Of a stretch of DNA of 64,000 bases, positions 945-15,941 are shown piece by piece (within the stretch, counting starts at the first letter, position 1; every line of letters begins with the position of its first letter). Made by a program: the position numbers and the translations under genes. Under the pieces are notes generated by a model. The model worked only from the letters and a program-made list of their open reading frames with translations, was not told the origin of the DNA and did not search any database. Source of the stretch: a virus (taxonomy: Duplodnaviria; Caudoviricetes); IMG/VR virus record IMGVR_UViG_3300037247_001786, positions 64,001-128,000 of that record, one strand, 5' to 3'.

Positions 945-3302
945 ATGAACAACAATCATCAAAGCTGGTACAAAAAAAATATTACCTCACAAAATAACCG
1001 CGTTAATGACGTTATAGATTGGGTTGATGACGACACCTCCGAAGAAATGGCTCAGATTATGAATCCTGAAATAGTAGATTTTGATGCTATAGAAAGGCAA
1101 CGAGCAGAAAACCTACCTTTAGAACAAGGAGAAATGCAAACTATTACAGAAGAAGAAATAGACGGCTATATCGTTGATGACCTGATAGAGCAAGATGAAA
1201 GATATATTAGAGACGAAAAAATGGAGCAAGATTATTTTGATGGAAAATATATTCCATCAGAAGAGGAACTTAAAGAAAGAGGTATAGAGCCGGTTATCGA
1301 CGATGAAACAGTTGTCGATGAGAATCCAGATGACGCTCCGGAGTTCGGAGAAGATCATATATCGGCAATGCAGTGGGCTATAGAGAATAATAGAGTTGTA
1401 AAGTTATCCTATCTAACTCTTGGTAAAAAAAGGGGAAGAGGAGGAAAACAGCACTTAAAAAGAGAAATAAGTGATGACAGAATCCCTGGAACAGGGGTTA
1501 ATATATGGAGAATAGTTGAACCTCATTATATTTATCCGGCGAGCAATGGACACGACATCCTAATAAGTTACGATAGATCAGTAAGGCATATCAGAGCTTT
1601 TAGAGTGTCTAATGTAACAGGAGTGGAATTTACTAAGAAAAGATCAACTAATGAACCTTCATATTTTAAACCAAGAGTTAAAATTAAAAATCCTGATGGG
1701 TTAGGGCAATCAGGTAAAATAAAAGGAATAGAAGCTATGAATGAAAATATTTTTCAAAATTTGAAAGAGATTGGTGATGATTTAGTATCAAAAGGATTAT
1801 CAAAAAATGCTGAATCAGTAACTAAAATGATGTCTCATTTGCTTAACATTAAGACAGCTCAATATGTAGGTCCTCAAGGATACTGGATCAGGCAAAAAAG
1901 ATGTTGGGATAATTGTTATAGGCATAAAAGAACAACTAGCCCAGAGAAAGCTGCTCAAACTGTATGGATGGAGTGCCGAGACGAATATAACGAGGCTATA
2001 AATAATAACTCAAGCGGTTGGGAAAAGTATGCTGAAGAAGATGCAGATCTTTTTAAATATGCTAGTAAGGAACAAGAAGATTGGGTGAAAGAAGAAAATA
2101 AAAAATTTGCTGAATCTGTTGATAAAAAAATAACAGAAGGAAAGTCTCATGGTATGTCTATTTGCTTAACTCTTGAACAGAGGAAAAATAGATATAACGA
2201 TATTCTTATTGCAGATGCCGATAATTTATCAAAAATAGCTGAAACACTAAAAGAAACAGGACAAGAGGAGCTAAGCGAGAAAATAGCAACAATTTCTATT
2301 GAATTATTAAAAAAAGCACAATTTGGAGGCGGGTTCGAAGGTGCAATGAATAAGCTGAGGAAATATAACCCTTTTTCAAGTAAGAGCCGAGCGAAAGGTC
2401 ACTCTGGTGACGTTATGACTCGTCTCAAAAATATCGCGATGCAAGCAGATAACTTGTCAACTCAATTTAATACTTTGCAAAGAGATGCCGCTCAATACGG
2501 GCAAGAGTATTCTCAAGAGCAACAGTCTTATAGAGATTTTGATCAACAACAACAAGCCAAAAAACAGCAAAGACAAGATATGTGGGGAAAAGTAAAGGAT
2601 GCTCCTGGACAAACATGGAACGCTCTGAAACAAAAAGGACAAGAGGCTTATCAGAACTTCTCAAATCCTCCTGGGCAAGCTCTTAGCGAAAGCGATACTG
2701 ATATTAAAGAAGCACAATATTCAGACAAGACAACAGGTGTAGTTTCCTTTATAAAAGATTTAAGATCACAACTTGAAGAATTTATGACTAATTTAGCAAC
2801 AGAAAAAAGTGCATTAAGTCAAATATCTGCCCAATCGACAGATACTTCATCAAGAGATAGAGCTGCTGGAGCATCTGTAGCTATTGAACAATTTATTACA
2901 AAAGCTAATCAATTTATATCATCTACGAGAACAGTTCAAGACGCTTTTAACGCAATCCCATCTATGGTAGAAGGTTTAAGTAAATTCTCTAATGATATAA
3001 ATATGATACAAAGAGGAGAGACTCCTCCAATAGATAGCGATAGAGATGGAGTGCCAGACAGTATAGATGTTGATAATAACCAGAATATGATAGCAGACGA
3101 AGAGGAGATAGCCACACCTGAAGAAGAGTTGGCTATACCTGAGAATATCCCACTTACTAGCAATCTAACAGGGGATAAACAACTAGATTTACAACAACTT
3201 ATGGAGAACGAAGATCTAAAAAGTTATCTAGCGTCATTGATGGGAATGTATAATAGTAAAATGAGAACATTAAAAAGACAACAGGCGAAAGAACAAATAT
3301 AA
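945..3302 (+). CDS. 785-aa putative head-associated protein with an N-terminal WYL-like domain
   Basis: aa ~140-230 match the WYL pattern (AIENNRVVKLSY...RIVEPHYIY...LISYDRSVRHIRAFRVSNV). Later Cys motif RCWDNCYR, KTAQ/KKAQ/KEAQ motifs and a Q-rich tract. Confidence 0.55.
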   Translation: MNNNHQSWYKKNITSQNNRVNDVIDWVDDDTSEEMAQIMNPEIVDFDAIERQRAENLPLEQGEMQTITEEEIDGYIVDDLIEQDERYIRDEKMEQDYFDGKYIPSEEELKERGIEPVIDDETVVDENPDDAPEFGEDHISAMQWAIENNRVVKLSYLTLGKKRGRGGKQHLKREISDDRIPGTGVNIWRIVEPHYIYPASNGHDILISYDRSVRHIRAFRVSNVTGVEFTKKRSTNEPSYFKPRVKIKNPDGLGQSGKIKGIEAMNENIFQNLKEIGDDLVSKGLSKNAESVTKMMSHLLNIKTAQYVGPQGYWIRQKRCWDNCYRHKRTTSPEKAAQTVWMECRDEYNEAINNNSSGWEKYAEEDADLFKYASKEQEDWVKEENKKFAESVDKKITEGKSHGMSICLTLEQRKNRYNDILIADADNLSKIAETLKETGQEELSEKIATISIELLKKAQFGGGFEGAMNKLRKYNPFSSKSRAKGHSGDVMTRLKNIAMQADNLSTQFNTLQRDAAQYGQEYSQEQQSYRDFDQQQQAKKQQRQDMWGKVKDAPGQTWNALKQKGQEAYQNFSNPPGQALSESDTDIKEAQYSDKTTGVVSFIKDLRSQLEEFMTNLATEKSALSQISAQSTDTSSRDRAAGASVAIEQFITKANQFISSTRTVQDAFNAIPSMVEGLSKFSNDINMIQRGETPPIDSDRDGVPDSIDVDNNQNMIADEEEIATPEEELAIPENIPLTSNLTGDKQLDLQQLMENEDLKSYLASLMGMYNSKMRTLKRQQAKEQI

Positions 3303-3388
3303 AATAAAATAAAGGATTTTAGGTAGTCCTGAAGTAATTAATAATAAATATACAAGTTTAACAAAAAAAATAGTTAATAAACAAGGAG

Positions 3389-4147
3389 ATGGATATGCAT
3401 TTTATTCAAAACAAGATCAGCGTTGGCGTTACAAAAACTTTTGATGACATAGTTAATGATTATGTTGCAAAGAAAAACGCCCAGGTAAAAACAGCTTCTG
3501 TTGAAGAAGTAGTGGCAGAAGTTAAAGTGGCTGAGGCAGATGAAGCCGCTTCAAGTGGACAATTAGATGTTGAACCTCTTCATCAAGAAGGCGAATCAAC
3601 GAATCAAGATTCTGTTGCTGGTGGAAAATCAGACGGCGACGGTGGAAAAGCTCCTGCTAAGAAAGCCGATGAAGAAGGCGAAGATAGCGGACAGCCAAAA
3701 GCCGAAGGTTCTGATAAGTTTACCAACGACCCTAAAGTAGACGCTGATGCTAACGCTGATGCTGATGTCAAGATAGCAGAAGCAAAATGCGAAGAATGCA
3801 AATGCGATCCTTGCTCTTGCGACGAGAAAGAAGCTAAGACTGATGAAGACGAAGAAGAAGTTAAAGAAGCTGGCATTAAGGGCAATTGTTCAAAATGCAG
3901 CAAACCTAACTTCCTTTGCAAATGTGACAAAGGTTCTGATGACTCTGATGACTCTGACGACTCCGATGACTCCGATGACTCCGATAAGGAAGATAAGGAA
4001 GATAAAGAAGCATCTGACGATAAGACTGTAAAAGTAGCTTTTAAGAAAATTGCTAATTTAACATCGCCAGAAAAAGCAAGACTCGGCAAGTACTGGAAGA
4101 ACATCTATCCAGATTCATTCGTTGATGCTATGTTGGCTGACAAATAA
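3389..4147 (+). CDS. Acidic low-complexity putative scaffold/internal head protein with Cys clusters
   Basis: AGGAG SD; D/E-rich; CEECKCDPCSC and CSKCSKPNFLCKC clusters; DDS tandem repeats; many K-x-A motifs; located in the head module. Confidence 0.55.
   Translation: MDMHFIQNKISVGVTKTFDDIVNDYVAKKNAQVKTASVEEVVAEVKVAEADEAASSGQLDVEPLHQEGESTNQDSVAGGKSDGDGGKAPAKKADEEGEDSGQPKAEGSDKFTNDPKVDADANADADVKIAEAKCEECKCDPCSCDEKEAKTDEDEEEVKEAGIKGNCSKCSKPNFLCKCDKGSDDSDDSDDSDDSDDSDKEDKEDKEASDDKTVKVAFKKIANLTSPEKARLGKYWKNIYPDSFVDAMLADK
3935..4015 (+). repeat. In-frame 9-bp tandem repeats (DDS x5, then DKE x3)
   Basis: gatgactct/gatgactcc units followed by gataaggaa units. Confidence 0.85.
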
Positions 4148-4163
4148 TTTATAACAGTTATTA

Positions 4164-4871
4164 ATGGAGTTTATTATGGCGATTATACCTGTTGGTAAAA
4201 CGCGTTTAATGGTTTCGCAAGTAATATCTACCCCTACATCACAGGGGTATGACGATGGCGTACCTAAACTTACCCCCGATGATATTGATGTTGAGGGAAT
4301 AGGGAATGACTTGCCAGAAATTCCAGAAGTCCCAGAAGCCCCTGAATCTCCAGAAGAAGGAATTCAGGGAGTCGCTGAAGATAATCAGCTAACTTTAACA
4401 GATTATATTTTTAAAACTCTTGAGGGGTTTGGTTATCCTGGTAGACGATTAGAAGAATTTAAGAAGAAATTTGTTAAAGAAAGCGTATCTCCAGATGGAA
4501 CAAAAGATATTAAGATAGAGATCCCTGATAGATATTATCCCGATAACATGGGTAATATAAAAACAGTGGAAACAGAGGAACTTGGTAAATTTGTTCAAGA
4601 AATTAATAGTAAATTTGGTCTTAATTTCAATGGTGCTGAACGGTCTGAAGGAAAATGGCTTGTTAACTTAACATCTGCTAAAAGAACAGAAGAGGATGAG
4701 GGAGGTATTGTTAGAGATAATCTTGACGAAGTTTACGGGACTCCCTCGGGCAATGGAAAGCCAAGTGTTAAAAAAGAGACAACTGTTCAAGCTTTTTCTC
4801 AACAAGAGTTAATAACAGCATCAAAAGACGATAAACTTATAGAAAATTTACAAAAATTAAATGGAGAATAA
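4164..4871 (+). CDS. Hypothetical head-module protein (probable start 4176)
   Basis: ORF track; GGAG SD precedes the ATG at 4176. Confidence 0.6.
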   Translation: MEFIMAIIPVGKTRLMVSQVISTPTSQGYDDGVPKLTPDDIDVEGIGNDLPEIPEVPEAPESPEEGIQGVAEDNQLTLTDYIFKTLEGFGYPGRRLEEFKKKFVKESVSPDGTKDIKIEIPDRYYPDNMGNIKTVETEELGKFVQEINSKFGLNFNGAERSEGKWLVNLTSAKRTEEDEGGIVRDNLDEVYGTPSGNGKPSVKKETTVQAFSQQELITASKDDKLIENLQKLNGE

Positions 4872-5700
4872 TATGCTTCGCAAAACAAAATCTCAAAATA
4901 TTTTAAATCTCTTTACTATGCCAGAAGAACCTGATAAAGTCGCTGAATTTACAGAAACAAAAAACATTAGCGATAAAGTGTCAGAAGGCAGATTAAGAGT
5001 AACTAGTAAACAAAATATTTCTGAAAATTTCTTCGGATTAGGGGAATTGGCTGAGAACGTTGCAATTGCTCAAAAAGTTTCTAAAGCTCAAGACAATGAG
5101 AACAGAAACAGCAAAGAGCACTTGGCTATATTATCAGAAGAGCAAAAGAGTAAAAGCCTTTCTGGTTTCAATCCTATGACTTCTAATGGCAGTAGTATTA
5201 TATCAGCGAATGCTGGAGGCATTACCGACATGGGCGGACCTCAGAAACAGATTAAGATACCTACATCGAATAGTATTTTTAATCCTGATAGAAATGCGAT
5301 AGAAGCGAGTAAAATTGATAGCAAAACAGAAACTAAAATAGAAAAAGAAAAAATTGCTACAAATAGAAGGTTGTCAGAGCAAAAAAGAATGGACGACATG
5401 GTAGAGTCTTTGAGAACTACTAATCAATCTAAAAGTTCATCTGCTCATAGAACTGGAACTGGCGATCTAGAGAGAACAGATTTTAAATTATCTCGAAATA
5501 ATATAAGCATTTTTGATTCAGGAGATTTCGATAGAGTTCCTGAGAAAACAAGAGGAGAAAAAGTCTCTGAACAAGTAGCTGAAAAGAATGCTCAAATTGA
5601 TGAGTCTTGGAGACAAAATGGAAAATCGTTGAAAAGTAGAGAAGTTACAAATAGATTTTTTGACAGTTTGATAGAGAAATTAGAATCTGATGGATGTTAA
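4861..5700 (+). CDS. Hypothetical head-module protein (probable start 4873)
   Basis: Overlapping operon arrangement; GGAG SD before the ATG at 4873. Confidence 0.6.
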   Translation: MENNMLRKTKSQNILNLFTMPEEPDKVAEFTETKNISDKVSEGRLRVTSKQNISENFFGLGELAENVAIAQKVSKAQDNENRNSKEHLAILSEEQKSKSLSGFNPMTSNGSSIISANAGGITDMGGPQKQIKIPTSNSIFNPDRNAIEASKIDSKTETKIEKEKIATNRRLSEQKRMDDMVESLRTTNQSKSSSAHRTGTGDLERTDFKLSRNNISIFDSGDFDRVPEKTRGEKVSEQVAEKNAQIDESWRQNGKSLKSREVTNRFFDSLIEKLESDGC

Positions 5701-6916
5701 TTATGTCCAACAAAGTTTTGGGAACGGTTTAATAGAACTAGAAACATCTATTCCTGAACTTAGAGCTTTGCCTCCTGAAGAGGCTGATCTTCAGATTCAA
5801 CAAACTAAACGAATATTAATGGACACTCAATTAAGATTGAGCAAAGCGTCAAGTAGTATGGCGGGTATAGAAAAACAGATTAATAATACGGTTGATACGG
5901 AACAACAAGCAACAAATCAACAAGTTATTACTAATCTTACTAGTAATATAGAGGGAGAAGCTATGAGTAAAAATAAAAAAGAAATTAAAGCTTTTAATCT
6001 AAAACAAGCTCAATTTGAAGCTCCGGCTGTTCCATTTGGATCAGATAGCTTTAATGACGCACCTGAACTAGGAGAAGAGAACTTTAATAGCATACAAGAA
6101 ATAAACCAAGAAAACGGACTAGATAGAAAAGCTTTTACAGATTTCTTATCTGGACTAGCATCAGAAGACGTTAATGGATTATTCCAATTTGTAAAAACAC
6201 ATTCTTCTAGCGGTAGCGAAGAGGTTGTTGATAAACTTACAGAACAATTTAATATGATATTTGAAAATCCTATGCATGTTGACGAATCAGATCAAATTGC
6301 AGGACAAATTTATGATCTATTAGATGACGAAATAAAAACTATTCCGTCTAATGCCGCAATGGGAATTCCCACCACTATATCAGAAATTAATGACATTATA
6401 AAAAAACTTGCTGAAGAGCATGTTAATAAAAAAACTAAAATAAGCTCATTTAATTTGAAGAAAACTGCTCAACATAAAACCGTTGAGAACGTTATTCTTC
6501 ATGGACCACATAATATGAAATTCGACCCTTTCCTCAGACAACCTGTTTCTGATTGGAGTATTCTTGAAAGAAATAAAGGTTTCGGATTAACATTTGATGA
6601 CGTTTGGGATGTAGATTATGAAGCTATATGGCGTGGATCTGTCATGGATAAGTATTCTCGCCCTTATAGAGATAAAGAGGGTAACTGGGTCGGTGGGTAT
6701 ATAAACAAAAGATTTGAGGTTGATAGGAATATCCCTGAAACAAATAATTTACAATTAAAACCTGGGCAATTAAGAAGACCGACTCCTCCTGAATATGGAC
6801 TAATAGAATCTCGCTTACAAGCTGCAAGAGCTAATGGCGATATCGAAGGCGGACCAGATGTAAATAGAAGTAAGCCTTTTAATTGGAAAGAAGCTTCATC
6901 TAAAAAAAAAAGTTAG
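5690..6916 (+). CDS. Hypothetical head-module protein ending at an A10 run
   Basis: 408-aa ORF with FNLKQAQF, FNLKKTAQ and FNWKEAS motifs; ends TCT AAA AAA AAA AGT TAG. Confidence 0.65.
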   Translation: MDVNYVQQSFGNGLIELETSIPELRALPPEEADLQIQQTKRILMDTQLRLSKASSSMAGIEKQINNTVDTEQQATNQQVITNLTSNIEGEAMSKNKKEIKAFNLKQAQFEAPAVPFGSDSFNDAPELGEENFNSIQEINQENGLDRKAFTDFLSGLASEDVNGLFQFVKTHSSSGSEEVVDKLTEQFNMIFENPMHVDESDQIAGQIYDLLDDEIKTIPSNAAMGIPTTISEINDIIKKLAEEHVNKKTKISSFNLKKTAQHKTVENVILHGPHNMKFDPFLRQPVSDWSILERNKGFGLTFDDVWDVDYEAIWRGSVMDKYSRPYRDKEGNWVGGYINKRFEVDRNIPETNNLQLKPGQLRRPTPPEYGLIESRLQAARANGDIEGGPDVNRSKPFNWKEASSKKKS

Positions 6917-7362: not shown

Positions 7363-7379
7363 ATAAAAGGGAATAATAT

Positions 7380-9680
7380 ATGGCTAATATAAAAATGAAA
7401 GTATCAGATAGTAGTCCAGAGGGTAGGAGAAGATTAACGACTGCCACAGGTGGATACAATATAGGCACATCAGGCAAAGAAAATTCTGATACGATAGGTA
7501 GTAATCGAAAATATATTTCATCTCAATCAGTAAAAGTACCAATAACTAAAAATGCTCAATTTGCAGGATCAGCAGCGAACGCTGTTTGGGCACAACCAAT
7601 GTTTTTCTCACCTTTACATACCCCACAAAATTGGCAAATAGCTAGTAAAAGAAGAGAAATATATCAATGGTCAAGATTTTATTACATGAATGAACCAAAG
7701 GTCGCTGCAGGCGTTGACTTCTATGCTAATTTTTCTATGAATGGATTTAAACTAGAATGTAAAAAGAAAAAAATCTTAAAGTATTTCGAAAGATTAGTTG
7801 AAAGATTAGACTTATCTGAAAGGCTTAATGAGATAAGCCATGAATATTTTTTATTAGGAGATGTATTCCCATTTTTAGAAATAACTTGTCCTCAGTGTCA
7901 AGGAGGAGGATTTACAAAAGATGGAAAACCGTGCAATCATCCAGATGGAAGTTTTAAGTCTGTTAAAATTTTAAATCCAGACTATATGGATGTTAAGACA
8001 AATAGTATCGCAAACGATCCTAAATTTTTCTTAAAACCAGATGAAGAACTTAAGATGCTTGTTTCTAGAAAAGAACCAAAAGAACTATACGAAAGTCTTC
8101 CTCAAGATTTAATCGATCTTATCTCTACAGGGCAAGATATCCCGTTATCAGATAGATCTATAAGCCATATAAGACATAATGCTAGTCCTTATGGAGTATA
8201 TGGCGTATCTATGCTACAAAGACTGTTTACTATGTTGGCTTATAAGACAAAAATCATGACAGCCAACTGGATAGTTGCAGAAAGATTAATTCTTCCTGTC
8301 AGAGTAGTAAAAGTTGGAGACGAGAAAAGACCAGCCACAGAAGAAGATCTCCAAGATGTCGTAAATCAATTAGGGGCTGTTGCTAATGACCCCAACTTAA
8401 CGATCGTCACTCACCATGCATTTGATTATGAATGGTATGGGGCTTCAGGTAAAATTCATAATATCACTCAAGAGATGGAACATATCGGCAAAGAGATACT
8501 TGATGGACTGATGCTTAATCAAGCTTTACTTAATGGAGAAATGGGAGGTTATAATAGTGCTCAAGTTGGAATAGAGGTTCTTATCCGAAGACTTGATAAT
8601 TGGCGTAACAAGCTTAAATCTTGGGTGGAGAAACATATTTTCCTTCCAATTGCTATGATGCAAGGCTTTATAGACGAACAAGAGTCGGACATGCTTGGAG
8701 AGACAGTTTACATGTATCCGAAATTAGTTTGGAATGATTTGCAATTAAGAGACAAAACAAATAAAATACAAACTTTGATGCAATGGTATGATAAGGGAGG
8801 GGTTTCTGCTCAAACTATATGTGAAGAACTAGATTTAGATTATGATGCCGAAGTTGAGAAAATAAGGGAAGAACAAGTTATGGCAGGACCTCAAGGACAG
8901 ATGCCAGGTGGAGGCAATATGGGAACTATGGGCATGGGAGACATGGGTGGAGGAATGCCAGGCGGAGACATGGGAGGAGGAATGCCAGGCGGAGATATGG
9001 GAGGAGGAATGCCGGGTGGAGGAATGCCAGGCGGAGACATGGGTGGAGGAATGGCAGGCGGAGGAATGGGAGCTGCCCCAGGAATGGGAGCTGCAGCAGA
9101 GAGTTCTTTGCCTAAGATAACTAAAAGAGGCGGAGGCGGTGGAAAAGAAGAAGAGCAAGAACAAGCTCCTCCTCAAATGATAAAATTTACTAAATTAGAA
9201 CAACAAATGTATAAAATACTTCAACAGATTCCAGCTCCTCATGAATTGTTCGCTCAATATTCAGTTAAAGTTCCTGGAGAGCAAAGACCTTTTGTTTTAG
9301 ATTTCGCTTACCCTCAGATAGGAATAGGGGTAGAAACAGATGGAGCTATCTGGCATCAAAGAGAGGACTTCCAACAAAGAGATCTAGTAAGAGACCAAAA
9401 ATTAGCCAATGTTGGTTGGAGAATATTAAGATTTAGAGATGATGCGGTTGATGAACAATCAGATACAGTTCGAGAGGTTATCTCTAAAAATATTATAGAA
9501 GCAACAAAAACTAAAAAAGCAGCTAATGACAAAAACCTAGTTATGAAATACGCTTCAATAGAAGAAACGGGAAAAAATCCAATTTATGATTATATGCTCG
9601 CTAATGAGGGTAAAATAGGAATTAATATTATTGAATTGCCTGGAAAAATGGGACAATTATTATTGATAGGAACAATATAA
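7380..9680 (+). CDS. Portal protein with Gly/Met linker and C-terminal DUF559/Vsr-like endonuclease domain
   Basis: Position upstream of protease and capsid; portal-like core (HEYFLLGDVFPF, HIRHNASPYGVYGVSML, PVRVVKVG); C-terminal FVLDFAY..IGIGVETDGAIWH...RD..RDQKL...GWRILRF. Confidence 0.75.
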   Translation: MANIKMKVSDSSPEGRRRLTTATGGYNIGTSGKENSDTIGSNRKYISSQSVKVPITKNAQFAGSAANAVWAQPMFFSPLHTPQNWQIASKRREIYQWSRFYYMNEPKVAAGVDFYANFSMNGFKLECKKKKILKYFERLVERLDLSERLNEISHEYFLLGDVFPFLEITCPQCQGGGFTKDGKPCNHPDGSFKSVKILNPDYMDVKTNSIANDPKFFLKPDEELKMLVSRKEPKELYESLPQDLIDLISTGQDIPLSDRSISHIRHNASPYGVYGVSMLQRLFTMLAYKTKIMTANWIVAERLILPVRVVKVGDEKRPATEEDLQDVVNQLGAVANDPNLTIVTHHAFDYEWYGASGKIHNITQEMEHIGKEILDGLMLNQALLNGEMGGYNSAQVGIEVLIRRLDNWRNKLKSWVEKHIFLPIAMMQGFIDEQESDMLGETVYMYPKLVWNDLQLRDKTNKIQTLMQWYDKGGVSAQTICEELDLDYDAEVEKIREEQVMAGPQGQMPGGGNMGTMGMGDMGGGMPGGDMGGGMPGGDMGGGMPGGGMPGGDMGGGMAGGGMGAAPGMGAAAESSLPKITKRGGGGGKEEEQEQAPPQMIKFTKLEQQMYKILQQIPAPHELFAQYSVKVPGEQRPFVLDFAYPQIGIGVETDGAIWHQREDFQQRDLVRDQKLANVGWRILRFRDDAVDEQSDTVREVISKNIIEATKTKKAANDKNLVMKYASIEETGKNPIYDYMLANEGKIGINIIELPGKMGQLLLIGTI
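8905..9095 (+). repeat. GGMPGGDM-type in-frame repeats in the portal linker
   Basis: Several copies of ggaggaatgccaggcggagacatg. Confidence 0.85.
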
Positions 9681-10099
9681 TGAAAATATTTAATTTAAAA
9701 CTTGCTGGCCCTAAAAAAATTAAAGATAGGGGTATCAATTGGAAAGAAAAATATCATGAAAAATCAGTTGGACTTAAAAAGAAGTTTGATAAGGAAATAG
9801 GACCTCAAGCTTATATGAGATTTGAGGGACATGACTATACCACCAATTCAGATTATTTTGTAGTAGTTGGTCCTGCTGTCACAAAAGACCTTAAAAAAAG
9901 ATATTTTGCGGGAATTAAAAAATTACCTGATGACCCTAAAGCTAAAGTATATGCTCCTTCAGGGGAATATTTTTCTACTGTAGTTGCAGCGTATAGCCAT
10001 GCTGCTGATAAATGGAGAATTCCATTTCCAAAAGGAGTCCCTGGATATAATCTAGGTCATCTAGCGAATATAGATATACCAAGGCACGTAAAAGGATAA
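9680..10099 (+). CDS. Hypothetical protein (starts MKIFNLKLAG)
   Basis: Start overlaps the portal stop codon; 139 aa. Confidence 0.65.
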   Translation: MKIFNLKLAGPKKIKDRGINWKEKYHEKSVGLKKKFDKEIGPQAYMRFEGHDYTTNSDYFVVVGPAVTKDLKKRYFAGIKKLPDDPKAKVYAPSGEYFSTVVAAYSHAADKWRIPFPKGVPGYNLGHLANIDIPRHVKG

Positions 10100-10170
10100 A
10101 AACTTAAATAAAGGTTTTTTAAGACTATTTCCTAAATAAAAAGAATACACATTATTTGGAGACAAATATA

Positions 10171-10332
10171 ATGCTAAAGTGCGGTCAAAAAGATAATGCC
10201 AATTATACATTTGGCGTAAGTGAAAAACAAATTAAAAAAGCGAATAAAGATGCTTCAAAATTTTGTTCTGCTTGTGGCTCAAAAATAAGAGCTAATACTG
10301 ACTATTGCTCAAAATGCGGGAGTCCAGTTTAA
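10171..10332 (+). CDS. 53-aa double-CxxC zinc-ribbon protein (not in ORF track)
   Basis: GGAG SD; MLKCGQK...FCSACGSKIRANTDYCSKCGSPV*. Confidence 0.6.
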   Translation: MLKCGQKDNANYTFGVSEKQIKKANKDASKFCSACGSKIRANTDYCSKCGSPV

Positions 10333-10389
10333 CTACTCTCCTGATCAATATGGCACGACTATTTAAATTAATAATTAAGGAAATAAATT

Positions 10390-13300
10390 ATGGCTATTTA
10401 TAAAACAGCAACTTTTTCTTATAAACATGAAATTAAGGCTCTTAATAAACCTAAAGGTTGGGATATCTTTAATCTTCCTGATCAAATCAAAACAGCTTCA
10501 ACTAAACTGTCAGAGAATGAAGATCTCAATGGTTTCGACTTAAAAACAGCGACATCAGATCATCCAGATCATCTTTATTTAAAAATATTTGCTATTAAAG
10601 AAGATGAGGTAAATGATAATGGGGACGCTTTCTCATCTAAAGAACTTAAAACTGCTGCTGCATCTTTTGTAGGAGTTCCTTTATTTACTAATCACCAAAA
10701 CGACGATGTCGAAAAATCAAGAGGAGAATGCGTTCACTCTTGGTACGATAAAACCGCTGGAGGTATCTTTATTATAGGAAGAGTAGATAAAGTAGCTTAT
10801 CCTAAATTAGCAAGAGGAATTGAAGAAGGGTATATTACTGGAACATCTATGGGTTGTTCAGTAGAATACTCTATATGCTCAGTTTGCCATAATAAGGCAC
10901 AAACATCTGATGAATACTGCGAACATATTGCAGGAAGAAAAAATAAAAAATATTCTGGCGATATTAATTGCAAATATCATCAAAGCCCTATCGATACTGA
11001 CGATCAATGCCCTCTTTGTAAATCTGTTAAAGATACATCGACTTCATTAGATCATGATAAACAAGCTATTTTTGAACATAACTATGGACTTAAATTTATC
11101 GAAAACTCATTTGTTGTAAACCCTGCTTGTCATGATTGTGGCGTAAGCTGTATTCTTCATGTACCAGAATTACAAAAGAAAATAGCTTCATTTAGTAATT
11201 CTATCAACTCTTTAATTAAAAATTCAAGTAATCTTAATGAAGATGGGATAGATGATTTACTTAAAATGGGGGGAGTAGACGAGCTTAATCTTCTTAAAGA
11301 CTCTATGGGGAAACTAGAACAAGTAGTCCAGAGCATGTTAAAGCAAAAAGAAAATGTCTCTATGGACTATGTAAGCGACCTAGTTAAAGCTATGGCTGAC
11401 TTGCAAGCTACTTATGATGAGTTAAATGAAATGGGATATGCCAGACTTCCATCTGCTGTAACCGCTGATATACCAACAGATACGGCTATTACCGGAGACG
11501 CTGAGGCTGAAGCATTGCCAAACCCAGTCGCTCAACCAGCTCCAATGCCAGCTCCTGCATCTACAGGAGTAAGCTCAAATGACATGTCAGGTCTCGGGAC
11601 TATGACTACACCTAAACAATCTTCGAAAAAAATAGAGGATTTTTCAGCTATAAATCAAAAATTAGTAACTAAGGTGTCAATGTTAACAGATACCATCAAT
11701 AATGTTATAGAAAATATCAATAACCGAAATTTAAAAGAAATAGGAGTGGATATGACTGCAAAGAAAGAAACAAAAGTAGCGGCTGGCCCTGAAAACAGAG
11801 AAGTCATTACTGAAAAACAATTAGAGAAGAAGAATACAGACCTACATCCTAGAACTGATACTACTTATGAAGGGACTACTGAAAGTCCTGAACAAATAGG
11901 TGGTTCAGAGCAAAGTAATGATACCACAAGCGACAGTCCACAAGTTCGTCAAGGAACTTATGAAACTATTACTGAGGATCAACTTGGCACAACAAGTGCT
12001 GCTGTAGTCCGTTATGATGATACTCCAGAAGTTATCACAGAAAAACAATGGACAGAACTAAGCAGAACTATCAGTTCTCAGGTATCAGATGATTATATTG
12101 AAACAATTACTGAAGACCAACTAAAGCAATTGCTTCAAAACCATAAATTTGTAGGATCTTACGAAACAATTACAGAAGATCAACTTAAAGGAATAAGTAT
12201 GACAACTGATCTTAAGAGATGGGCGAATAAAGACTATTCCCTTTCTGTTATGAAAGTTGCCACAAAATCTATTGTTGACGCTATCTCTGATTATCGAAAA
12301 TCTCCTGAAGAAATAGCTAGAACAGCTTCTGCGATAGTTGATAATCCAGAAATGAGAGCAAAAGTAGCTTTCTTATCAGTTGTTAATTCATTACCACATA
12401 AAGTAGAAGATAGAAATTTGATGGCAAGTAAGTCAGCTTATTTTAGTAAAGTAGCTTCTAAAGATTCTTCAGTATCGGCTATCGATGCATTATCGTTTGC
12501 AGTCGCCGCTAATGGAGAATTAGGAATGGTAGCAGAAGATATTCTTGACTCTATCGCTCATGCAGTAAGAAATAAAACTGTTATGGCTAAAGTTGATGAT
12601 ATGGTAAAAACAAAACTTGCTTCAGGTTCTGAACAAAAAACAGTTATTAGTAAATATGACGCTATGGCATCTGCTATTAAAGCTTTAGATAAGCCTGAAG
12701 ATGGCATATATAGAATTAAAGCGACACTCGCTGATATTGATGCTCCTATTACAAACAAAGTTGCTTTCTGCGAAAGTATTAAAAAATTCGCACAAGGAAT
12801 AATGGAAGAAGAAGGAATGATGGGAGAAGAAATGACAGGAGAAGAAGGTTCTGAAGGTTCTGTAGCAGCTGTTATCAAGGTTCAAGTCGGCGATGGAGGA
12901 GAACTTATTATAGATGTATCAGAAGATGGTGCAGAAATAACTCCTGATGATATCGAAGGACTTATCGAAGGACCTGTAGATGATATCGATGTAGAGCCAG
13001 AAACAGAAGAACCTGGTTGCGACGTTTGCGAACAACCTGGCGAAGACTGTGCATGCATGGCTAAATCTAGAGAAGAAATTACTAAAGAAGCTCAAATGAT
13101 GGGCGGAGAAATGGGTGGTCAAGGAGGAGCAGCTCAAGCACCTGGTGCTGGAGCGTCCGTTCCTGGTATGCCAGCCGAAGTTGCACCTATGGAGAGCTTA
13201 ACAGAAGAACCTGCTGTTGATGAGATGGGTCTTGATGATGGAGGAGGGGAACCTCTTCCTCCTGGTTCACTTTGTCCTGCTTGCGGTAGCGAAGATGTTG

Positions 13301-15894
13301 ACGTTATCTCAGGTAAAACTAAATGTAATAATTGTGGATCTACTGGAACATTTAAAGTACAGATAGAAGTTGACAATTGGACAGGAACTACCCCCGATGC
13401 TAATTCCGAACCTGAAGAAGGTGGAGACGAATTCGGTGGAGAAGGTTTCGAGATGCCAGAAGACGCTGGTCTGGAAGAACCAGGTATGGGCGATGCAGGA
13501 ATGGGCGAAATGCCAGCAGTCGCTGCTATGATGAAAGTTACTCCTGAAATGTTACAGAAGCTCGCTGAGACTGATATAGAAATTGGAACAGTTAGCCCTG
13601 CTACAGGATCAACAAATACTATGAAGCTTGCATCAGGAGAACACGTTTGTCTTGATACAGGAACTAAATATAAAGTTGCTTATGCCACTTCAACAGATGG
13701 TAAAGAAGTATGGGCTCAATGGGAATGGACTCCATTAGTAGAAGGAATAAATGTAAAATGTTCTTCTTGCGATAGAGCGAAACAAAAATTTGTAAAAGCA
13801 CTATCTTCAATCTCTGTTACTGAAGCTCAATTTGATGCTTTAGAAATTAAAGAAAAAATTCAGACTATTAGCAAATTAAAAGAAGCTGGATCTTTAAAAA
13901 CAATTAAAACAGCTAGCAAAGAAGGGTCGGTTATAGATGATTACAAACTCGCTTACGGAGGTTATGGTAAAGATTTCCCAATAGAAAGTTGCGTAGAAAA
14001 ACTTGCTCGCAGATTTGGAGAGAATGCATTAGCTTTAAGTGGTCCATGCGAAGGCAAACCTCTTGCAGAATGCGTATGTCAACAACTTAAGAACGCTGAC
14101 ATCTATACAGATAAAGTTGCTATTAAAGTTGCTGAAAGTTGGAGCGATTGCTCAGGAGATGAGGAATGCGTTGAAGACCAGATCAGAGATGGATATAATA
14201 TCAGACAAGCCGCAAGTATTTGCGAAACTCTAAAGATAACCGTTGCTTCTCCTGAAGATCTATTAGCTGATGAGCTTTCCAATGAAGAATTTGGCGACCC
14301 TAACGGCGAACCAGACGGTCCTGAAGGACTTCCAATGGAAGAGACAGTAGAAGATGTTGATCCATTTGCAGAAGGAGATGTAGGGGGAACAGTAACCCTT
14401 GAGCTTCCTGTAGATGTTGTCGAACAACTTAGCGAACAGCTTGATGTAGCTCTCGGAGAAGGTTCGGAAGATGGATTAGAAGATGCTGATATGAATGGAA
14501 CTCCTGATATTATGGAAGACAATGGAGGAGAAATTGTTGAAGAGATCACTCCTGAAGATCTTGGAGTTGAAGAAACCTCTCCTATGATGGATATGACAGA
14601 AACAAAACCAATGGAAGACATGACAGAGTCAAAACCTGTTGATGGAATTGGAGTTAATTTCGAACAAGAAGAAAATAATAGAGGACTTTCTGCACCATTT
14701 TCAGAAAAGAAAGTTACAGTTAATGTAGATCCTGCATTGGCTGAAAGCGAATACGATTTTAAGGAAGCTTCTAATATGAAAAGTAGACAAGGAAAAGTTG
14801 GACAAGTCGGAATGGACTTATCTGGAGTTTTAGCTGTTATCACTGCTGGCGAAAAAGAAATTAGCCAAGAGAAAGCACAAGACTCAAGCGATATAGGTCA
14901 ATATACGGCAGGAGAAAATGGCAGTCAAATGGGTCATGAAAATGAAACTATTCCTACTGCTCAAAAACCTTCTATACCAAGAGACAATGCTACAATGGGA
15001 CAAGAAGATGCAGACCTTAATCCACAAGATAGTCCACAACCAGTCATACCTTCTGACAATGCTACAATGGGTCACGAAGATGAAGCTGGATTGAGTGGAG
15101 GAGACAACAGATATACTGGAGGAACAGACGGACAAGGCAAAACAGAAACTGCCTCTACCGATGAAGACTTAATGCATATGGCAGGATTTGGGAACTCAAG
15201 TTCTGGTCTCTCTCGTTTAGCTGAAAGAATCCTTGAAGCTACAAAACTAGAAGCACCAGCACCAGTTGCTGATGATAAAGATATAAAACCTATCAAAGGA
15301 GATAGCACAATTGGTAAAGAAGATAAATTCGATGCCAAGGGGCCTGAGAATACTAAAGGAACCGGAAATACTTCTATGATGGGGCACGAAAGTGAAACAA
15401 TAGGTGACAGACCTGATTCTCCTAAAGATCATCCTGATGTTGCTACAGGCAACTCACAGATGGGACAAGAAGAGTTAGACTCTGAAAAAACTACTAAAGA
15501 TAAAGGTACAGTAATCGCTGAAACTGACAGCGGTTCGAAGTCCGAGGCTTATAGAGTCGCTGCTAGAATGCTACAGTCAAAAATGATTGAAGCTTCTGGA
15601 TTAGAGTCCAAGGTTCAAGAATTAAGAACTTATAAGCCTGCCCAAATTAAAGATATCGAAAAAGCTATCTTTGCTGGCAAAAAAGGACTTGACACTGTAT
15701 CAGACGGAATGTCTCAAGCCGTAGTAATAAATGAGGCAAGTAGCGAACAACAAGCTATCAAAGAGGCTAAAGCAAATGAAGTTAATACTACAGATGAATT
15801 GCAAAAGAAAATATCTTCACTGTTTCGCTTAGAACAGCAAAATATAGAAGCTGATAATGACGAGAATATTCAGTTAAGAAGAACTTATCGTTAA
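10390..15894 (+). CDS. Giant prohead protease/scaffold polyprotein (1834 aa)
   Basis: N-terminal phage maturation-protease motifs (VNDNGDAF, LFTNHQ, GTSMGCSV..SICSVC, FIENSFVVNPA), then long acidic repeat-rich regions; sits between portal and capsid genes. Confidence 0.75.
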   Translation: MAIYKTATFSYKHEIKALNKPKGWDIFNLPDQIKTASTKLSENEDLNGFDLKTATSDHPDHLYLKIFAIKEDEVNDNGDAFSSKELKTAAASFVGVPLFTNHQNDDVEKSRGECVHSWYDKTAGGIFIIGRVDKVAYPKLARGIEEGYITGTSMGCSVEYSICSVCHNKAQTSDEYCEHIAGRKNKKYSGDINCKYHQSPIDTDDQCPLCKSVKDTSTSLDHDKQAIFEHNYGLKFIENSFVVNPACHDCGVSCILHVPELQKKIASFSNSINSLIKNSSNLNEDGIDDLLKMGGVDELNLLKDSMGKLEQVVQSMLKQKENVSMDYVSDLVKAMADLQATYDELNEMGYARLPSAVTADIPTDTAITGDAEAEALPNPVAQPAPMPAPASTGVSSNDMSGLGTMTTPKQSSKKIEDFSAINQKLVTKVSMLTDTINNVIENINNRNLKEIGVDMTAKKETKVAAGPENREVITEKQLEKKNTDLHPRTDTTYEGTTESPEQIGGSEQSNDTTSDSPQVRQGTYETITEDQLGTTSAAVVRYDDTPEVITEKQWTELSRTISSQVSDDYIETITEDQLKQLLQNHKFVGSYETITEDQLKGISMTTDLKRWANKDYSLSVMKVATKSIVDAISDYRKSPEEIARTASAIVDNPEMRAKVAFLSVVNSLPHKVEDRNLMASKSAYFSKVASKDSSVSAIDALSFAVAANGELGMVAEDILDSIAHAVRNKTVMAKVDDMVKTKLASGSEQKTVISKYDAMASAIKALDKPEDGIYRIKATLADIDAPITNKVAFCESIKKFAQGIMEEEGMMGEEMTGEEGSEGSVAAVIKVQVGDGGELIIDVSEDGAEITPDDIEGLIEGPVDDIDVEPETEEPGCDVCEQPGEDCACMAKSREEITKEAQMMGGEMGGQGGAAQAPGAGASVPGMPAEVAPMESLTEEPAVDEMGLDDGGGEPLPPGSLCPACGSEDVDVISGKTKCNNCGSTGTFKVQIEVDNWTGTTPDANSEPEEGGDEFGGEGFEMPEDAGLEEPGMGDAGMGEMPAVAAMMKVTPEMLQKLAETDIEIGTVSPATGSTNTMKLASGEHVCLDTGTKYKVAYATSTDGKEVWAQWEWTPLVEGINVKCSSCDRAKQKFVKALSSISVTEAQFDALEIKEKIQTISKLKEAGSLKTIKTASKEGSVIDDYKLAYGGYGKDFPIESCVEKLARRFGENALALSGPCEGKPLAECVCQQLKNADIYTDKVAIKVAESWSDCSGDEECVEDQIRDGYNIRQAASICETLKITVASPEDLLADELSNEEFGDPNGEPDGPEGLPMEETVEDVDPFAEGDVGGTVTLELPVDVVEQLSEQLDVALGEGSEDGLEDADMNGTPDIMEDNGGEIVEEITPEDLGVEETSPMMDMTETKPMEDMTESKPVDGIGVNFEQEENNRGLSAPFSEKKVTVNVDPALAESEYDFKEASNMKSRQGKVGQVGMDLSGVLAVITAGEKEISQEKAQDSSDIGQYTAGENGSQMGHENETIPTAQKPSIPRDNATMGQEDADLNPQDSPQPVIPSDNATMGHEDEAGLSGGDNRYTGGTDGQGKTETASTDEDLMHMAGFGNSSSGLSRLAERILEATKLEAPAPVADDKDIKPIKGDSTIGKEDKFDAKGPENTKGTGNTSMMGHESETIGDRPDSPKDHPDVATGNSQMGQEELDSEKTTKDKGTVIAETDSGSKSEAYRVAARMLQSKMIEASGLESKVQELRTYKPAQIKDIEKAIFAGKKGLDTVSDGMSQAVVINEASSEQQAIKEAKANEVNTTDELQKKISSLFRLEQQNIEADNDENIQLRRTYR

Positions 15895-15941
15895 AAAAAG
15901 ATTTTAATTAAAACAAACTTTAAATAAAAGGAGAGACAATT

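What the first reader, a model, noticed from the sequence alone, without database searches (positions are those of the whole stretch)
945..15894. Recurrent K-x-A-(Q/S) motif across head proteins: a candidate protease cleavage code
Seen: KTAQY, KKAQF, KEAQY, KYAS (945 gene); KTAS, KVAE, KIAE, KEAG, KEAS, KVAF (3389); KQAQF, KTAQH, KEAS (5690); KNAQF, KYAS (portal); and about 20 in the 1834-aa protease (KTAS x2, KIAS, KVAS, KLAS x2, KEAQ, KEAS and others), often at domain boundaries. It also occurs in distant genes (KKAQF at 47625; KIAS and KIAF at 50052; KLAY at 44529). Established: T4 gp21 and phiKZ gp175 cut many head proteins at short consensus motifs ending in Glu. Inference: this phage's protease uses a different K-x-A consensus to process head proteins and polyproteins. 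Caveat: K-x-A also occurs by chance and a few copies are in the tape measure protein.
Basis: inference. Interest (0 to 1): 0.75.

Follow-up and report, generated by a model that had tools for sequence, protein, structure and literature searches.

The report
Lys-x-Ala cut-site code in megaphage heads
In this 461-kb relative of the giant Bacillus phage G, the short pattern Lys-x-Ala (mostly followed by Ser or Gln) is strongly over-represented only in the head-assembly proteins and conserved where little else is, so it is most likely the cutting signal of the phage's own capsid-maturation protease, though no cut has been shown.

Summary
In the head block (ORFs 945-16529) K-x-A occurs 67 times against 28.2±5.0 in shuffles (0/2000). 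K-x-A-[QS] occurs 24 times against 3.3. The rest of the window is at expectation (57 vs 57.1). K-x-A is the most enriched of all gapped dipeptides; KA, KxxA, KxxxA and AxK are flat.

Across all 645 ORFs of the 461-kb genome, the enrichment is confined to the head block, apart from two isolated ORFs read as chance. It recurs in cultured phage G (48 vs 21.8) and in 53 related metagenomic loci (2.06x upstream of the capsid gene, 1.08x downstream).

In 51 homologues of the 1834-aa protein, K and A stay 80-100% conserved at about nine sites while their flanks drift. Two of these sites bracket the N-terminal protease domain, which has the T4 gp21/herpesvirus assemblin fold. In four unrelated head proteins, the portal among them, the motif sits just before the conserved domain.

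Best reading (about 0.7): this is the cleavage code of the prohead protease, possibly with Ala at P1 as in assemblin.

Caveats: there is no proteomic evidence and the scissile bond is unknown. Most sites in the polyprotein lie in predicted helices, not linkers.

This scan noted the same motif earlier in other phage-G-like genomes. I found no publication describing it.

The parts
945..3302 (+). 785-aa head-block protein. All 12 K-x-A sites (3.9 expected) lie in residues 287-621. In relatives the N-terminal ~290 aa and the motif-rich C-terminal part are two separate ORFs.
1851..1862 (+). KTAQ (residue 303). K-x-A-Q-Y-V-G is conserved in all six aligned homologues, directly before a conserved Cys-rich domain. 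In relatives it follows an N-terminal leader of about 37 aa.
3389..4147 (+). 252-aa acidic, CxxC-containing protein; 10 K-x-A (3.7 expected). KTAS (residue 34) and KEAS (residue 206) are conserved in relatives.
4861..5700 (+). 279-aa head-block protein; 3 K-x-A here, 5-9 in homologues of related phages.
5690..6916 (+). 408-aa head-block protein with F-N-L-K-Q-A-Q (residue 105), F-N-L-K-K-T-A-Q (258, just before the conserved C-terminal domain) and F-N-W-K-E-A-S (400, six residues from the C-terminus after the Ala). All three are conserved in relatives. Nucleotide positions: 6002-6013, 6461-6472, 6887-6898.
7380..9680 (+). Portal protein, 766 aa, with a C-terminal DUF559/Vsr-like domain.
7548..7559 (+). 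KNAQ (portal residue 57). P-[IL]-T-K-[NA]-A-Q-[FY] is conserved in relatives (R-K-M-A-S in phage G). It lies between a variable N-terminal ~55 aa and the conserved portal core QPMFFSPLH. Candidate propeptide cut.
9546..9557 (+). KYAS (portal residue 723), after the DUF559 domain. Kept only in the closer relatives.
9680..10099 (+). 139-aa basic protein. Its N-terminus M-K-I-F-N-L-K-L-A-G is followed by the conserved RKRIKDRGI core. In relatives with an insert, [FY]-N-L stays at the N-terminus and K-x-A-G stays next to the core.
10390..15894 (+). 1834-aa protease polyprotein; 31 K-x-A (11.4 expected) and 10 K-x-A-[QS] (1.3 expected). Homologues of 1660-2380 aa sit upstream of the capsid gene in all relatives. 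Phage G has only the 300-aa protease (gp19).
10510..11127 (+). Prohead protease domain (residues ~41-246), with the T4 gp21/assemblin fold. N101-H102 are invariant and S153-M154-G155 nearly invariant; these are candidate catalytic residues. It carries a Cys/His-rich insert.
10489..10500 (+). KTAS (residue 34), in a low-confidence segment before the protease domain. K-x-A is present at this column in 45 of 51 homologues.
11179..11190 (+). KIAS (residue 264), at the end of the disordered segment after the protease domain. Present in 41 of 51 homologues, and phage G gp19 has KVAS at residue 248. Analogue of the assemblin release site.
11773..11784 (+). KVAA (residue 462), in a gap-rich disordered linker. 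K and A are each 97% conserved in homologues under 45% identity, while flanking positions are 21-52%.
12253..12264 (+). KVAT (residue 622). Conserved (40/51) but inside a confidently predicted helix.
12448..12459 (+). KVAS (residue 687). Conserved (42/51), at the end of a helix.
13084..13095 (+). KEAQ (residue 899). K-x-A-Q-M is conserved (42/51), immediately before a Gly/Met-rich disordered spacer.
13906..13917 (+). KTAS (residue 1173). Conserved (46/51), in a 7-residue confidence dip between two folded domains.
14125..14136 (+). KVAE (residue 1246). K 94% and A 100% conserved, but inside a predicted helix.
15634..15645 (+). KPAQ (residue 1749), between helices of the C-terminal helical (scaffold-like) region. 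32 of 51 homologues have a K-x-A within residues 1735-1755. Possible analogue of the assemblin maturational site.
15942..16529 (+). Decoration-like protein with no K-x-A. Internal negative control.
16615..17487 (+). Major capsid protein, 290 aa, 55% identical to phage G gp27, with no delta domain. One K-x-A against 1.8 expected. Apparently not a substrate.

Best explanation
K-x-A is the recognition and cleavage motif of this phage's own prohead protease. The fuller consensus is [L/F]-[I/V/L]-K-[T/V/I/L]-A-[S/Q/G/A/T], and many N-terminal leaders add an upstream [F/Y]-N-[L/W].

The protease is the N-terminal domain (residues ~41-246) of the 1834-aa protein. It has the T4 gp21/HK97/herpesvirus assemblin fold.

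Proposed course of events inside the procapsid:
1. The protease frees itself at the flanking sites K34-T-A-S and K264-I-A-S.
2. It cuts the rest of its own polyprotein into cargo pieces and scaffold fragments.
3. It removes N-terminal leaders from the portal and at least four other head proteins. It also trims a few residues from the C-terminus of the 5690 protein.
4. The capsid and decoration proteins are not cut.

Shown here: the enrichment, its restriction to head genes, its positional conservation, and the protease fold. Inferred: that the motif is cut, and by this enzyme. The scissile bond is unknown. By analogy with assemblin (…Q-A|S/T) I favour a cut after the Ala, with a small P1' residue.
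For: 1. Specific enrichment. Head block 67 vs 28.2±5.0 (0/2000 shuffles) and K-x-A-[QS] 24 vs 3.3. The rest of the window is 57 vs 57.1. KxA is the top gapped dipeptide and other spacings are flat.

2. Genome-wide, the surplus of K-x-A equals that of the head block. Outside it only two isolated ORFs pass p<0.01, with no sign of the full motif.

3. Same pattern in relatives.
- Phage G head genes: 48 vs 21.8 (0/2000); neighbouring genes 19 vs 17.9.
- 53 related loci: 2245 vs 1088 upstream of the capsid gene and 535 vs 497 downstream. K-x-A-[QS] is 696 vs 124 upstream and 72 vs 55 downstream.
- Five related genomes, ORF by ORF.

4. Positional conservation in 51 polyprotein homologues (25-80% identity). 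K-x-A is retained at the same column in 40% of cases in homologues under 45% identity, against 14% for all a-x-b motifs. This is the highest of any motif type. Lysines inside K-x-A are 51% conserved against 30% for other lysines (p 5e-4). The alanines are 58% against 31% (p 4e-5). At eight top sites K is 68-97% and A 73-100% conserved, with flanks mostly 20-60%.

5. Two of the best-conserved sites bracket the protease domain (residues 34 and 264). Phage G gp19 has KVAS at the matching C-terminal position.

6. In four unrelated families the motif lies at the junction between a variable leader and the conserved core. These are the portal, the C-terminal part of the 945 protein, the 5690 protein and the 9680 protein.

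7. Protease identity.
- PHROG head maturation protease, E 3.4e-8.
- Foldseek probability 0.97 to T4 gp21, with HCMV, KSHV and HSV proteases next.
- VIA-align Z 7.0, 124 residues, to 5jbl.
- hhalign 99.9% to phage G gp19, which is annotated as the head maturation protease in PMC12484599.

8. Precedent. Assemblin is likewise an N-terminal protease fused to a scaffold, and it cuts at YLQA-T and VQA-S (PMC4498786). Giant phages are known to process many head proteins at one short motif, such as A-X-E in SPN3US (PMC10052503).

9. Trivial causes excluded. There is no paralogy among the head proteins. Codon use at the motif matches the background.
Against: 1. There is no protein-level evidence of any cut.

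2. In the AlphaFold models, 26 of the 31 sites in the polyprotein lie in ordered, mostly helical segments. They are enriched there (26 vs 9.1). Only 5 lie in low-confidence linkers (2.8 expected). Two strongly conserved sites (622 and 1246) are inside confident helices, and several (87, 134, 139) are inside the protease fold. Some conserved K-x-A may therefore be structural. About 28 of the 67 copies are expected by chance.

3. The models are of modest quality (mean pLDDT 59 and 56).

4. Related sequences are not independent samples.

5. [LI]-x-E, the T4-type motif, is mildly enriched too (82 vs 53.4). This is partly due to five I-T-E-x-Q-L repeats, so a second or different code cannot be ruled out.
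Confidence: 0.7

Rival explanations
1. K-x-A, with the upstream [F/Y]-N-L, is an uncut capsid-targeting or scaffold-docking motif. It would bind the protease-scaffold or the inner shell surface to load proteins into the procapsid. Alternatively the address and the cut are separate, and K-x-A is only the address.
For: The motif sits in N-terminal leaders of several head proteins. [F/Y]-N-L and K-x-A can be separated by inserts, which suggests two functional elements. Many copies lie in helices rather than linkers. The T4 capsid-targeting sequence is a precedent for an N-terminal address (own knowledge; also the closest known case named in earlier scan notes).
Against: A docking motif would not be expected to bracket the protease domain. 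It would also not be expected six residues from a C-terminus (5690 protein) or 31 times in one polyprotein. The residue after Ala is small (S, G, A, T) or Gln in most conserved-site instances (S+G+A+Q+T = 0.76), with Ser alone at 34%. That is typical of a P1' position. In T4 and its relatives the address ends in the cut site, so the two readings are not exclusive.
Confidence: 0.12
2. The sites are cut by a host protease, for example a Prp-like enzyme of a Firmicute host, as in staphylococcal phage 80alpha. The phage protease would not be involved.
For: Phage G infects a Bacillus/Lysinibacillus host. Firmicute Prp cuts phage capsid and scaffold proteins that mimic the L27 leader (PMC9405229). 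[F/Y]-N-L-K-x-A-S loosely resembles (D/N)-L-Q-(F/L)-F|A-S.
Against: The Prp motif needs Phe at P1 and Phe/Leu at P2, directly before Ala-Ser. Here those positions are a variable T/V/I/L/E and an invariant Lys, and the spacing from N-L differs by one residue. Prp substrates are cut once, at the N-terminus, not at dozens of internal sites. The phage has its own prohead protease, flanked by the motif. It has no Prp gene of its own. The host of this uncultured phage is unknown.
Confidence: 0.05
3. The enrichment is a structural or compositional by-product. Examples would be a helix-packing preference of scaffold-like proteins or conserved structural residues. It would have no role as a linear motif.
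For: Most copies in the polyprotein are in predicted helices, and some conserved ones are inside folded domains.
Against: Only the i/i+2 spacing is enriched. The 13,480 aa of other proteins in the window, many of them helical, show none. The head proteins are not paralogous. The motif is also conserved in gap-rich disordered linkers (residues 462 and 1173) and in leaders. The following residue is biased too, with K-x-A-[QS] 7-fold over expectation.
Confidence: 0.06
4. K-x-A marks lysines for a covalent modification, such as acylation, methylation or isopeptide cross-linking inside the head.
For: An invariant Lys with a small neighbour at +2 could be a modification site. HK97-type capsids use Lys-based cross-links (own knowledge).
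Against: No modifying enzyme was seen in the head module. The capsid protein itself lacks the motif. The placement at leader/core junctions and around the protease domain is not explained.
Confidence: 0.03

Closest known systems
Herpesvirus assemblin (UL26/UL80a protease-scaffold; release and maturational sites, e.g. YLQA-T and VQA-S in PrV; PMC4498786)
   Same: An N-terminal serine protease of the same fold is fused to downstream scaffold-like sequence. A cut site lies directly after the protease domain. Ala is followed by Ser or Thr in the motif. Some assemblins also have internal sites within the protease.
   Different: Here a Lys is invariant two residues before the Ala, where assemblin has V/L/I or Q. 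The polyprotein is about three times longer, with several extra folded modules and zinc ribbons. The motif also marks the portal and other head proteins. The scissile bond is not known here.
T4 gp21 and the giant-phage proteases phiKZ gp175 and SPN3US gp245 (cleavage after L/I-x-E or A-x-E; PMC10052503)
   Same: One short motif is used to process many head proteins (portal, internal or ejection proteins, the protease itself), mostly by removing N-terminal propeptides. The protease fold is the same; T4 gp21 is the best structural match (Z 7.0).
   Different: The motif is basic/small (K-x-A) rather than ending in Glu. A-x-E is not enriched here (24 vs 31.4) and [LI]-x-E only mildly. The capsid protein seems uncut. 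The protease is part of a giant polyprotein.
HK97 gp4 prohead protease (MEROPS S78)
   Same: The gene lies between portal and capsid genes, in a phage lineage with an HK97-fold capsid. The enzyme is self-removing.
   Different: HK97 digests the capsid protein's own delta domain. Here the capsid protein has no delta domain and the substrates are separate proteins and the protease's own extension. I recall the HK97 maturation cut as Lys|Ser, but did not check this here.
Prp/L27-type cleavage of phage 80alpha capsid and scaffold proteins (PMC9405229)
   Same: A short N-terminal leader ends …x|A-S, in phages of Firmicutes.
   Different: It uses a host cysteine protease and makes a single N-terminal cut. 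The motif requires Phe-Phe/Leu-Phe, which is not met here.

Membership tests
Prohead serine proteases of the HK97 gp4 / T4 gp21 / herpesvirus assemblin fold (the enzyme) | Assemblin-type protease fold | tested here: met
   Foldseek top hits are T4 gp21 5jbl (probability 0.97) followed by HCMV, KSHV and HSV proteases. VIA-align gives Z 7.0, rmsd 3.8 Å, 124 of 164 residues, model residues 13-246. PHROG head maturation protease E 3.4e-8. E-values and Z are moderate because a 900-residue model was searched.
Prohead serine proteases of the HK97 gp4 / T4 gp21 / herpesvirus assemblin fold (the enzyme) | Conserved catalytic His and Ser | tested here: inconclusive
   N101-H102 are invariant and S153-M154-G155 nearly invariant in 35 homologues, and both are conserved in phage G gp19. 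I did not obtain a residue-level superposition on a solved protease to confirm that they are the catalytic pair.
Prohead serine proteases of the HK97 gp4 / T4 gp21 / herpesvirus assemblin fold (the enzyme) | Gene placed between portal and major capsid genes | tested here: met
   Portal at 7380-9680, protease polyprotein at 10390-15894, capsid protein at 16615-17487. The order is the same in all relatives.
Prohead serine proteases of the HK97 gp4 / T4 gp21 / herpesvirus assemblin fold (the enzyme) | Proteolytic activity on head proteins | not testable with these tools
   Needs mass spectrometry or an enzyme assay.
Prohead-protease cleavage motifs (the K-x-A sites) | Over-representation restricted to head proteins | tested here: met
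Prohead-protease cleavage motifs (the K-x-A sites) | Sites flank the protease and separate leaders from mature domains | tested here: met
   Sites 34 and 264 bracket the protease domain. Leader/core junctions are seen in the portal and in the 945, 5690 and 9680 families.
Prohead-protease cleavage motifs (the K-x-A sites) | Sites are accessible (linkers or termini) | tested here: inconclusive
   Five of nine top conserved sites are in or next to low-confidence linkers. Overall, though, 26 of 31 sites in the polyprotein are in ordered or helical parts of models with modest confidence.
Prohead-protease cleavage motifs (the K-x-A sites) | Mature termini map to the motif | not testable with these tools
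   Phage G virion proteomics is deposited in PRIDE (PMC12484599), but no peptide data were readable here.
T4-type L/I-x-E or phiKZ-type A-x-E code | Enrichment of the Glu-ending motif in head proteins | tested here: not met
   A-x-E is 24 vs 31.4. [LI]-x-E is 82 vs 53.4 in the window, but family-wide LxE is 903 vs 884. The IxE excess (1147 vs 811) is, by my rough estimate, about what the I-T-E-x-Q-L repeats would contribute.
Prp/L27-mimic leaders | (D/N)-L-Q-(F/L)-F|A-(S/H) at the N-terminus | tested here: not met
   The positions before Ala are K and a variable residue, not F/L-F, and most sites are internal. The phage has no Prp gene.

The most novel reading that the evidence does not exclude
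Phage-G-like megaphages would use a two-part 'address and cut' code, with [F/Y]-N-L as the tag and K-x-A as the cut. An assemblin-fold protease with Ala at P1, as in herpesviruses, would read it. The code would let the whole packaged head proteome be predicted from sequence. It would show that the 1660-2380-aa protease gene is a self-dismantling protease-cargo-scaffold polyprotein. It would also tie herpesvirus-type substrate specificity to a phage lineage that reaches as far as the Bxz1-like mycobacteriophages.
Probability: 0.3. Interest if true: 0.72.

Novelty: new variant of a known kind. Interest (0 to 1): 0.6.

Why it matters
Capsid-maturation proteases of giant phages decide which proteins are loaded into the head, trimmed, and later delivered into the host. 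So far a cutting rule has been worked out in detail only for the T4/phiKZ/SPN3US type, which ends in Glu.

A different, easily recognised rule for the phage G lineage would have several uses:
- It covers a lineage that includes the only cultured megaphage and hundreds of metagenomic relatives.
- It would allow head and cargo proteins, and their mature ends, to be predicted from sequence alone.
- It would explain the giant protease gene as a polyprotein.
- It would give a new comparison point for how specificity evolved in the fold shared with herpesvirus assemblin.

It can be tested at once, because phage G grows in the laboratory and virion proteomics data are already public.

Tried and rejected
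- Complex prediction of the protease domain (residues 41-250) with a 35-residue peptide around site 1173 gave no verdict (score 0.01). It says nothing either way.
- Profile search of the PDB by sequence found nothing useful. Pfam found no protease family at E≤0.01.
- Foldseek on the C-terminal half of the polyprotein gave no credible match, so the cargo modules remain unidentified.
- The search for related loci with the 945 protein found no relatives. Relatives were reached through whole-record searches instead.
- hhalign found no link between phage G gp21 and the C-terminal polyprotein profile. I could therefore not use free-standing phage G genes to fix module boundaries.
- Supplements of the phage G proteomics paper are not held.
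- Three literature searches found no report of a K-x-A rule. The 2020 phage G structure paper is not in the library.
- A DNA-level explanation was rejected because codon use at the motif is like the background.
- A paralogy explanation was rejected because no pair of head proteins matches at E<0.01.
- Mycobacteriophage I3 gave only a weak echo. Its protease polyprotein gp103 has K-x-A 18 vs 8.1, and RxA is 48 vs 32 in four head proteins. That is too weak to claim the rule extends that far.
Full report
**What the window is.** The window is bases 64001-128000 of a 460,978-bp viral record with direct terminal repeats; GC is about 34%. Its major capsid protein (16615-17487) is 55% identical to gp27 of Bacillus phage G. 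The gene order is portal (7380-9680), a small basic protein (9680-10099), a 1834-aa protein (10390-15894), a decoration-like protein (15942-16529) and the capsid protein.

The 1834-aa protein matches 'head maturation protease' profiles only at its N-terminus (phrog_18299, E 3.4e-8, residues 75-187). Outside this lineage the N-terminal domain is found only in Bxz1-like mycobacteriophages and a few other phages.

| Motif | Nine head-block ORFs (945-16529) | Rest of the window |
|---|---|---|
| K-x-A | 67 vs 28.2±5.0 (0/2000) | 57 vs 57.1 |
| K-x-A-[QS] | 24 vs 3.3±1.8 | 8 vs 5.9 |
| K-[TVILEKQYN]-A-[QS] | 21 vs 1.75 | 7 vs 3.3 |

KA, KxxA, KxxxA, AxK, RxA, KxS and KxG are not enriched. In an unbiased scan of all residue pairs at gaps 0-3, KxA is first in the head block (z 7.4), apart from CxxC zinc motifs. 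Nothing comparable appears elsewhere.

Across the whole genome (645 ORFs), K-x-A totals 597 against 560 expected, and the surplus equals that of the head block. Outside the head block only two ORFs pass p<0.01. One is an EF-Ts-like gene in which none of the seven K-x-A is followed by S or Q. The other has two K-x-A-[QS] but K-x-A at its expected density. I take both as chance among 645 tests.

**Trivial explanations.**
- The head proteins are not paralogues of each other; no pair matches at E<0.01.
- Lys and Ala codon use inside the motif is like that outside it (AAA 81% vs 82%; GCT 73% vs 55%), so this is not a repeated DNA word.
- A general helix effect is unlikely. Only the i/i+2 spacing is affected, and 13,480 aa of other proteins show nothing.

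**Relatives.**
- Cultured phage G: the head genes gp4, 5, 7, 11, 14, 19, 20 and 21 carry 48 K-x-A against 21.8±4.4 (0/2000). The other genes of its first 30 kb carry 19 against 17.9.
- 53 IMG/VR loci with capsid proteins 71-97% identical to this one: ORFs upstream of the capsid gene have 2245 K-x-A against 1088 expected (2.06x) and 696 K-x-A-[QS] against 124 (5.6x). Downstream ORFs have 535 vs 497 and 72 vs 55.
- KxA is also the top gap-1 pair family-wide. The runners-up reflect Gly/Met-rich spacers.
- In five related genomes read ORF by ORF, the same gene families carry the excess. The capsid protein, the decoration protein and a ~620-aa ORF absent from this window do not.
- Mycobacteriophage I3 has the same protease-polyprotein architecture (gp103, 1408 aa) and only a weak echo (K-x-A 18 vs 8.1).

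**Positional conservation.** I aligned 51 polyprotein homologues of 1660-2380 aa and 25-80% identity.
- K-x-A is present in at least 60% of sequences at 13 columns. These include reference residues 5, 34, 264, 462, 622, 687, 899, 1173 and 1246, and two columns where this phage lacks it (near residues 292 and 1485).
- In the 38 homologues below 45% identity, a reference K-x-A is retained at the same column in 40% of cases, against 14% for all a-x-b motifs. This is the highest of any motif type.
- Lysines within K-x-A are 51% conserved against 30% for other lysines (p 5e-4). The alanines are 58% against 31% (p 4e-5).
- At site 462 the profile reads K97-T34-A97, amid gaps and flanking positions at 21-52%. 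At site 1173 it reads K89-T63-A92-S76.
- Some sites wobble by a few residues between lineages (224, 1186, 1242/1246), as short linear motifs do.
- The consensus from conserved sites is [L/F]-[I/V/L/E]-K-[V/T/I/L]-A-[S/G/A/Q/T].

**Where the sites lie.** AlphaFold models of residues 1-900 and 880-1834, built on these alignments, have mean pLDDT 59 and 56.

The N-terminal β-rich domain is the protease. Foldseek gives probability 0.97 to T4 gp21, with HCMV, KSHV and HSV proteases following. VIA-align gives Z 7.0 over 124 residues, model residues 13-246. hhalign gives 99.9% to phage G gp19, which the phage G genome paper lists as the head maturation protease. N101-H102 are invariant and S153-M-G nearly invariant; they are the likely catalytic residues (inference).

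Two of the best-conserved sites, K34-T-A-S and K264-I-A-S, lie in or at the edge of the disordered segments on either side of this domain. Phage G gp19 has K-V-A-S at the corresponding C-terminal place. Sites 5, 462 and 1173 are inside low-confidence linkers, and 899 directly precedes a Gly/Met-rich spacer.

However, only 5 of the 31 sites lie in low-confidence segments (2.8 expected). The other 26 are in ordered, mostly helical parts, where they are also enriched (9.1 expected). Sites 622 and 1246 are inside confident helices. So 'often at domain boundaries' holds for the most conserved sites and the K-x-A-[SQ] subset, not for the whole set. Helical scaffold segments are cut in other phages, but some of these conserved K-x-A may simply be structural.

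**Other head proteins.**
- Portal: a variable N-terminal ~55 aa ends in P-[IL]-T-K-[NA]-A-Q-[FY]-x-G, directly before the conserved core QPMFFSPLH. Phage G has R-K-M-A-S there. Conservative variants (K-N-S-Q, R-S-A-Q) occur.
- C-terminal part of the 945 protein: this is a separate ORF in relatives. A ~37-aa leader, which itself carries up to two more K-x-A, ends in K-x-A-Q-Y-V-G before a conserved Cys-rich domain.
- 5690 family: [F/Y]-N-L-K-x-A-Q occurs twice, and [F/Y]-N-W-K-E-A-[S/Q] lies five to eight residues from the C-terminus.
- 9680 family: M-x-x-[F/Y]-N-L…K-x-A-G precedes the conserved RKRIKDRGI. Where relatives carry an insert, [F/Y]-N-L stays at the N-terminus and K-x-A-G stays by the core. 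The two elements are therefore separable.

**Mechanism.** The most economical reading is that K-x-A is what the prohead protease recognises and cuts. The protease would free itself at 34 and 264 and dismantle its own polyprotein. That polyprotein consists of helical modules, two zinc ribbons, an α/β domain, long disordered Gly/Met- and MGHE-rich stretches, and a C-terminal helical, scaffold-like end. The protease would also trim leaders from the portal and other head proteins.

The layout mirrors herpesvirus assemblin. Assemblin is an N-terminal protease fused to scaffold, with a release site right after the protease and a maturational site near the C-terminus, cut at YLQA-T and VQA-S (PMC4498786). 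Here 32 of 51 homologues have a K-x-A within residues 1735-1755. Processing of many head proteins at one short motif is established for SPN3US (A-X-E; PMC10052503).

Which bond is cut cannot be read from sequence. The small residue after Ala suggests a cut after Ala, but a cut after Lys or before Ala is possible.

**Rivals.**
- A pure docking or targeting motif fits the leaders but not the bracketing of the protease or the near-C-terminal site. It may well coexist with cleavage.
- A host Prp-type protease is unlikely. Its motif (D/N)-L-Q-(F/L)-F|A-(S/H) (PMC9405229) is not met, the sites are mostly internal, and the phage has its own protease but no Prp gene.
- The T4-type code is not supported. 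A-x-E is 24 vs 31.4. [LI]-x-E is mildly high in this window, but not for LxE family-wide. The IxE excess seems largely due to five I-T-E-x-Q-L repeats.

**Novelty.** Three literature searches and the phage G papers held in the library gave no report of this rule. The library is incomplete, and the 2020 phage G structure paper was not readable.

Within this scan the same motif was noted earlier in other phage-G-like genomes, including an F-x-[LI]-S-K-R-A variant. Those are unchecked notes, not independent evidence, but they agree with what I measured in 53 loci. I class the finding as a new variant of a known kind: a prohead-protease cleavage code with a different specificity, read by an unusually large protease polyprotein.

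Noticed in passing
L003:2572-4200 (relative with 97% identical capsid protein); insertion between residues 139 and 223 of the window's 10390 protein: About a third of the polyprotein homologues carry a ~400-aa intein inside the prohead protease domain (Intein_splicing E 4.4e-10, LAGLIDADG_3 E 1.4e-9, Hint). The window's copy lacks it.
   Followed up: partly
window 9170-9680 (portal residues ~600-766): The portal carries a C-terminal DUF559/Vsr-like endonuclease domain (Pfam E 2.6e-9) behind a Gly/Met-rich spacer. The domain is conserved in relatives but absent from phage G gp14.
   Followed up: partly
window 6893-7362: The 5690 ORF ends in an A10 run. The next frame is open for 152 codons with no start codon and encodes a CxxC…CxxC ribbon. 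Relatives have a separate 130-230-aa ORF here. It could be a frameshift, slippage or a homopolymer error.
   Followed up: partly
window 11806-12189 (polyprotein residues 473-600): Five copies of a (V/T)-I-T-E-(K/D)-Q-(L/W) repeat lie about 20-55 residues apart in a low-confidence region. T, Q and W positions are invariant across homologues. Function unknown. The repeat formally fits the T4-type I-x-E motif.
   Followed up: no
window 10870-11020 (protease residues ~160-210): A Cys/His-rich insert (C163, C166, C177, H179, C194, H197, C207) sits inside the protease domain and is shared with phage G gp19. It looks like a zinc-binding element, unusual for this protease family.
   Followed up: no
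window 13100-13250 and 9000-9170: Similar Gly/Met-rich low-complexity spacers (MGG/GGM repeats) occur in both the polyprotein (after site 899) and the portal. They account for the MG, MxG and GG enrichment.
   Followed up: no
genome G000:C1:449719-450612 (-), outside the window: An EF-Ts-like ORF (UBA-type N-terminus) encoded by the phage. It shows K-x-A 7 vs 1.6, but none followed by S or Q, which I take as chance.
   Followed up: partly
L101 (Mycobacterium phage I3, NC_067270.1 45365-49591): Bxz1-like mycobacteriophages have the same layout. A 1408-aa 'hypothetical protein' with the N-terminal protease domain sits directly upstream of a small protein and the capsid gene. K-x-A there is 18 vs 8.1.
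   Followed up: partly
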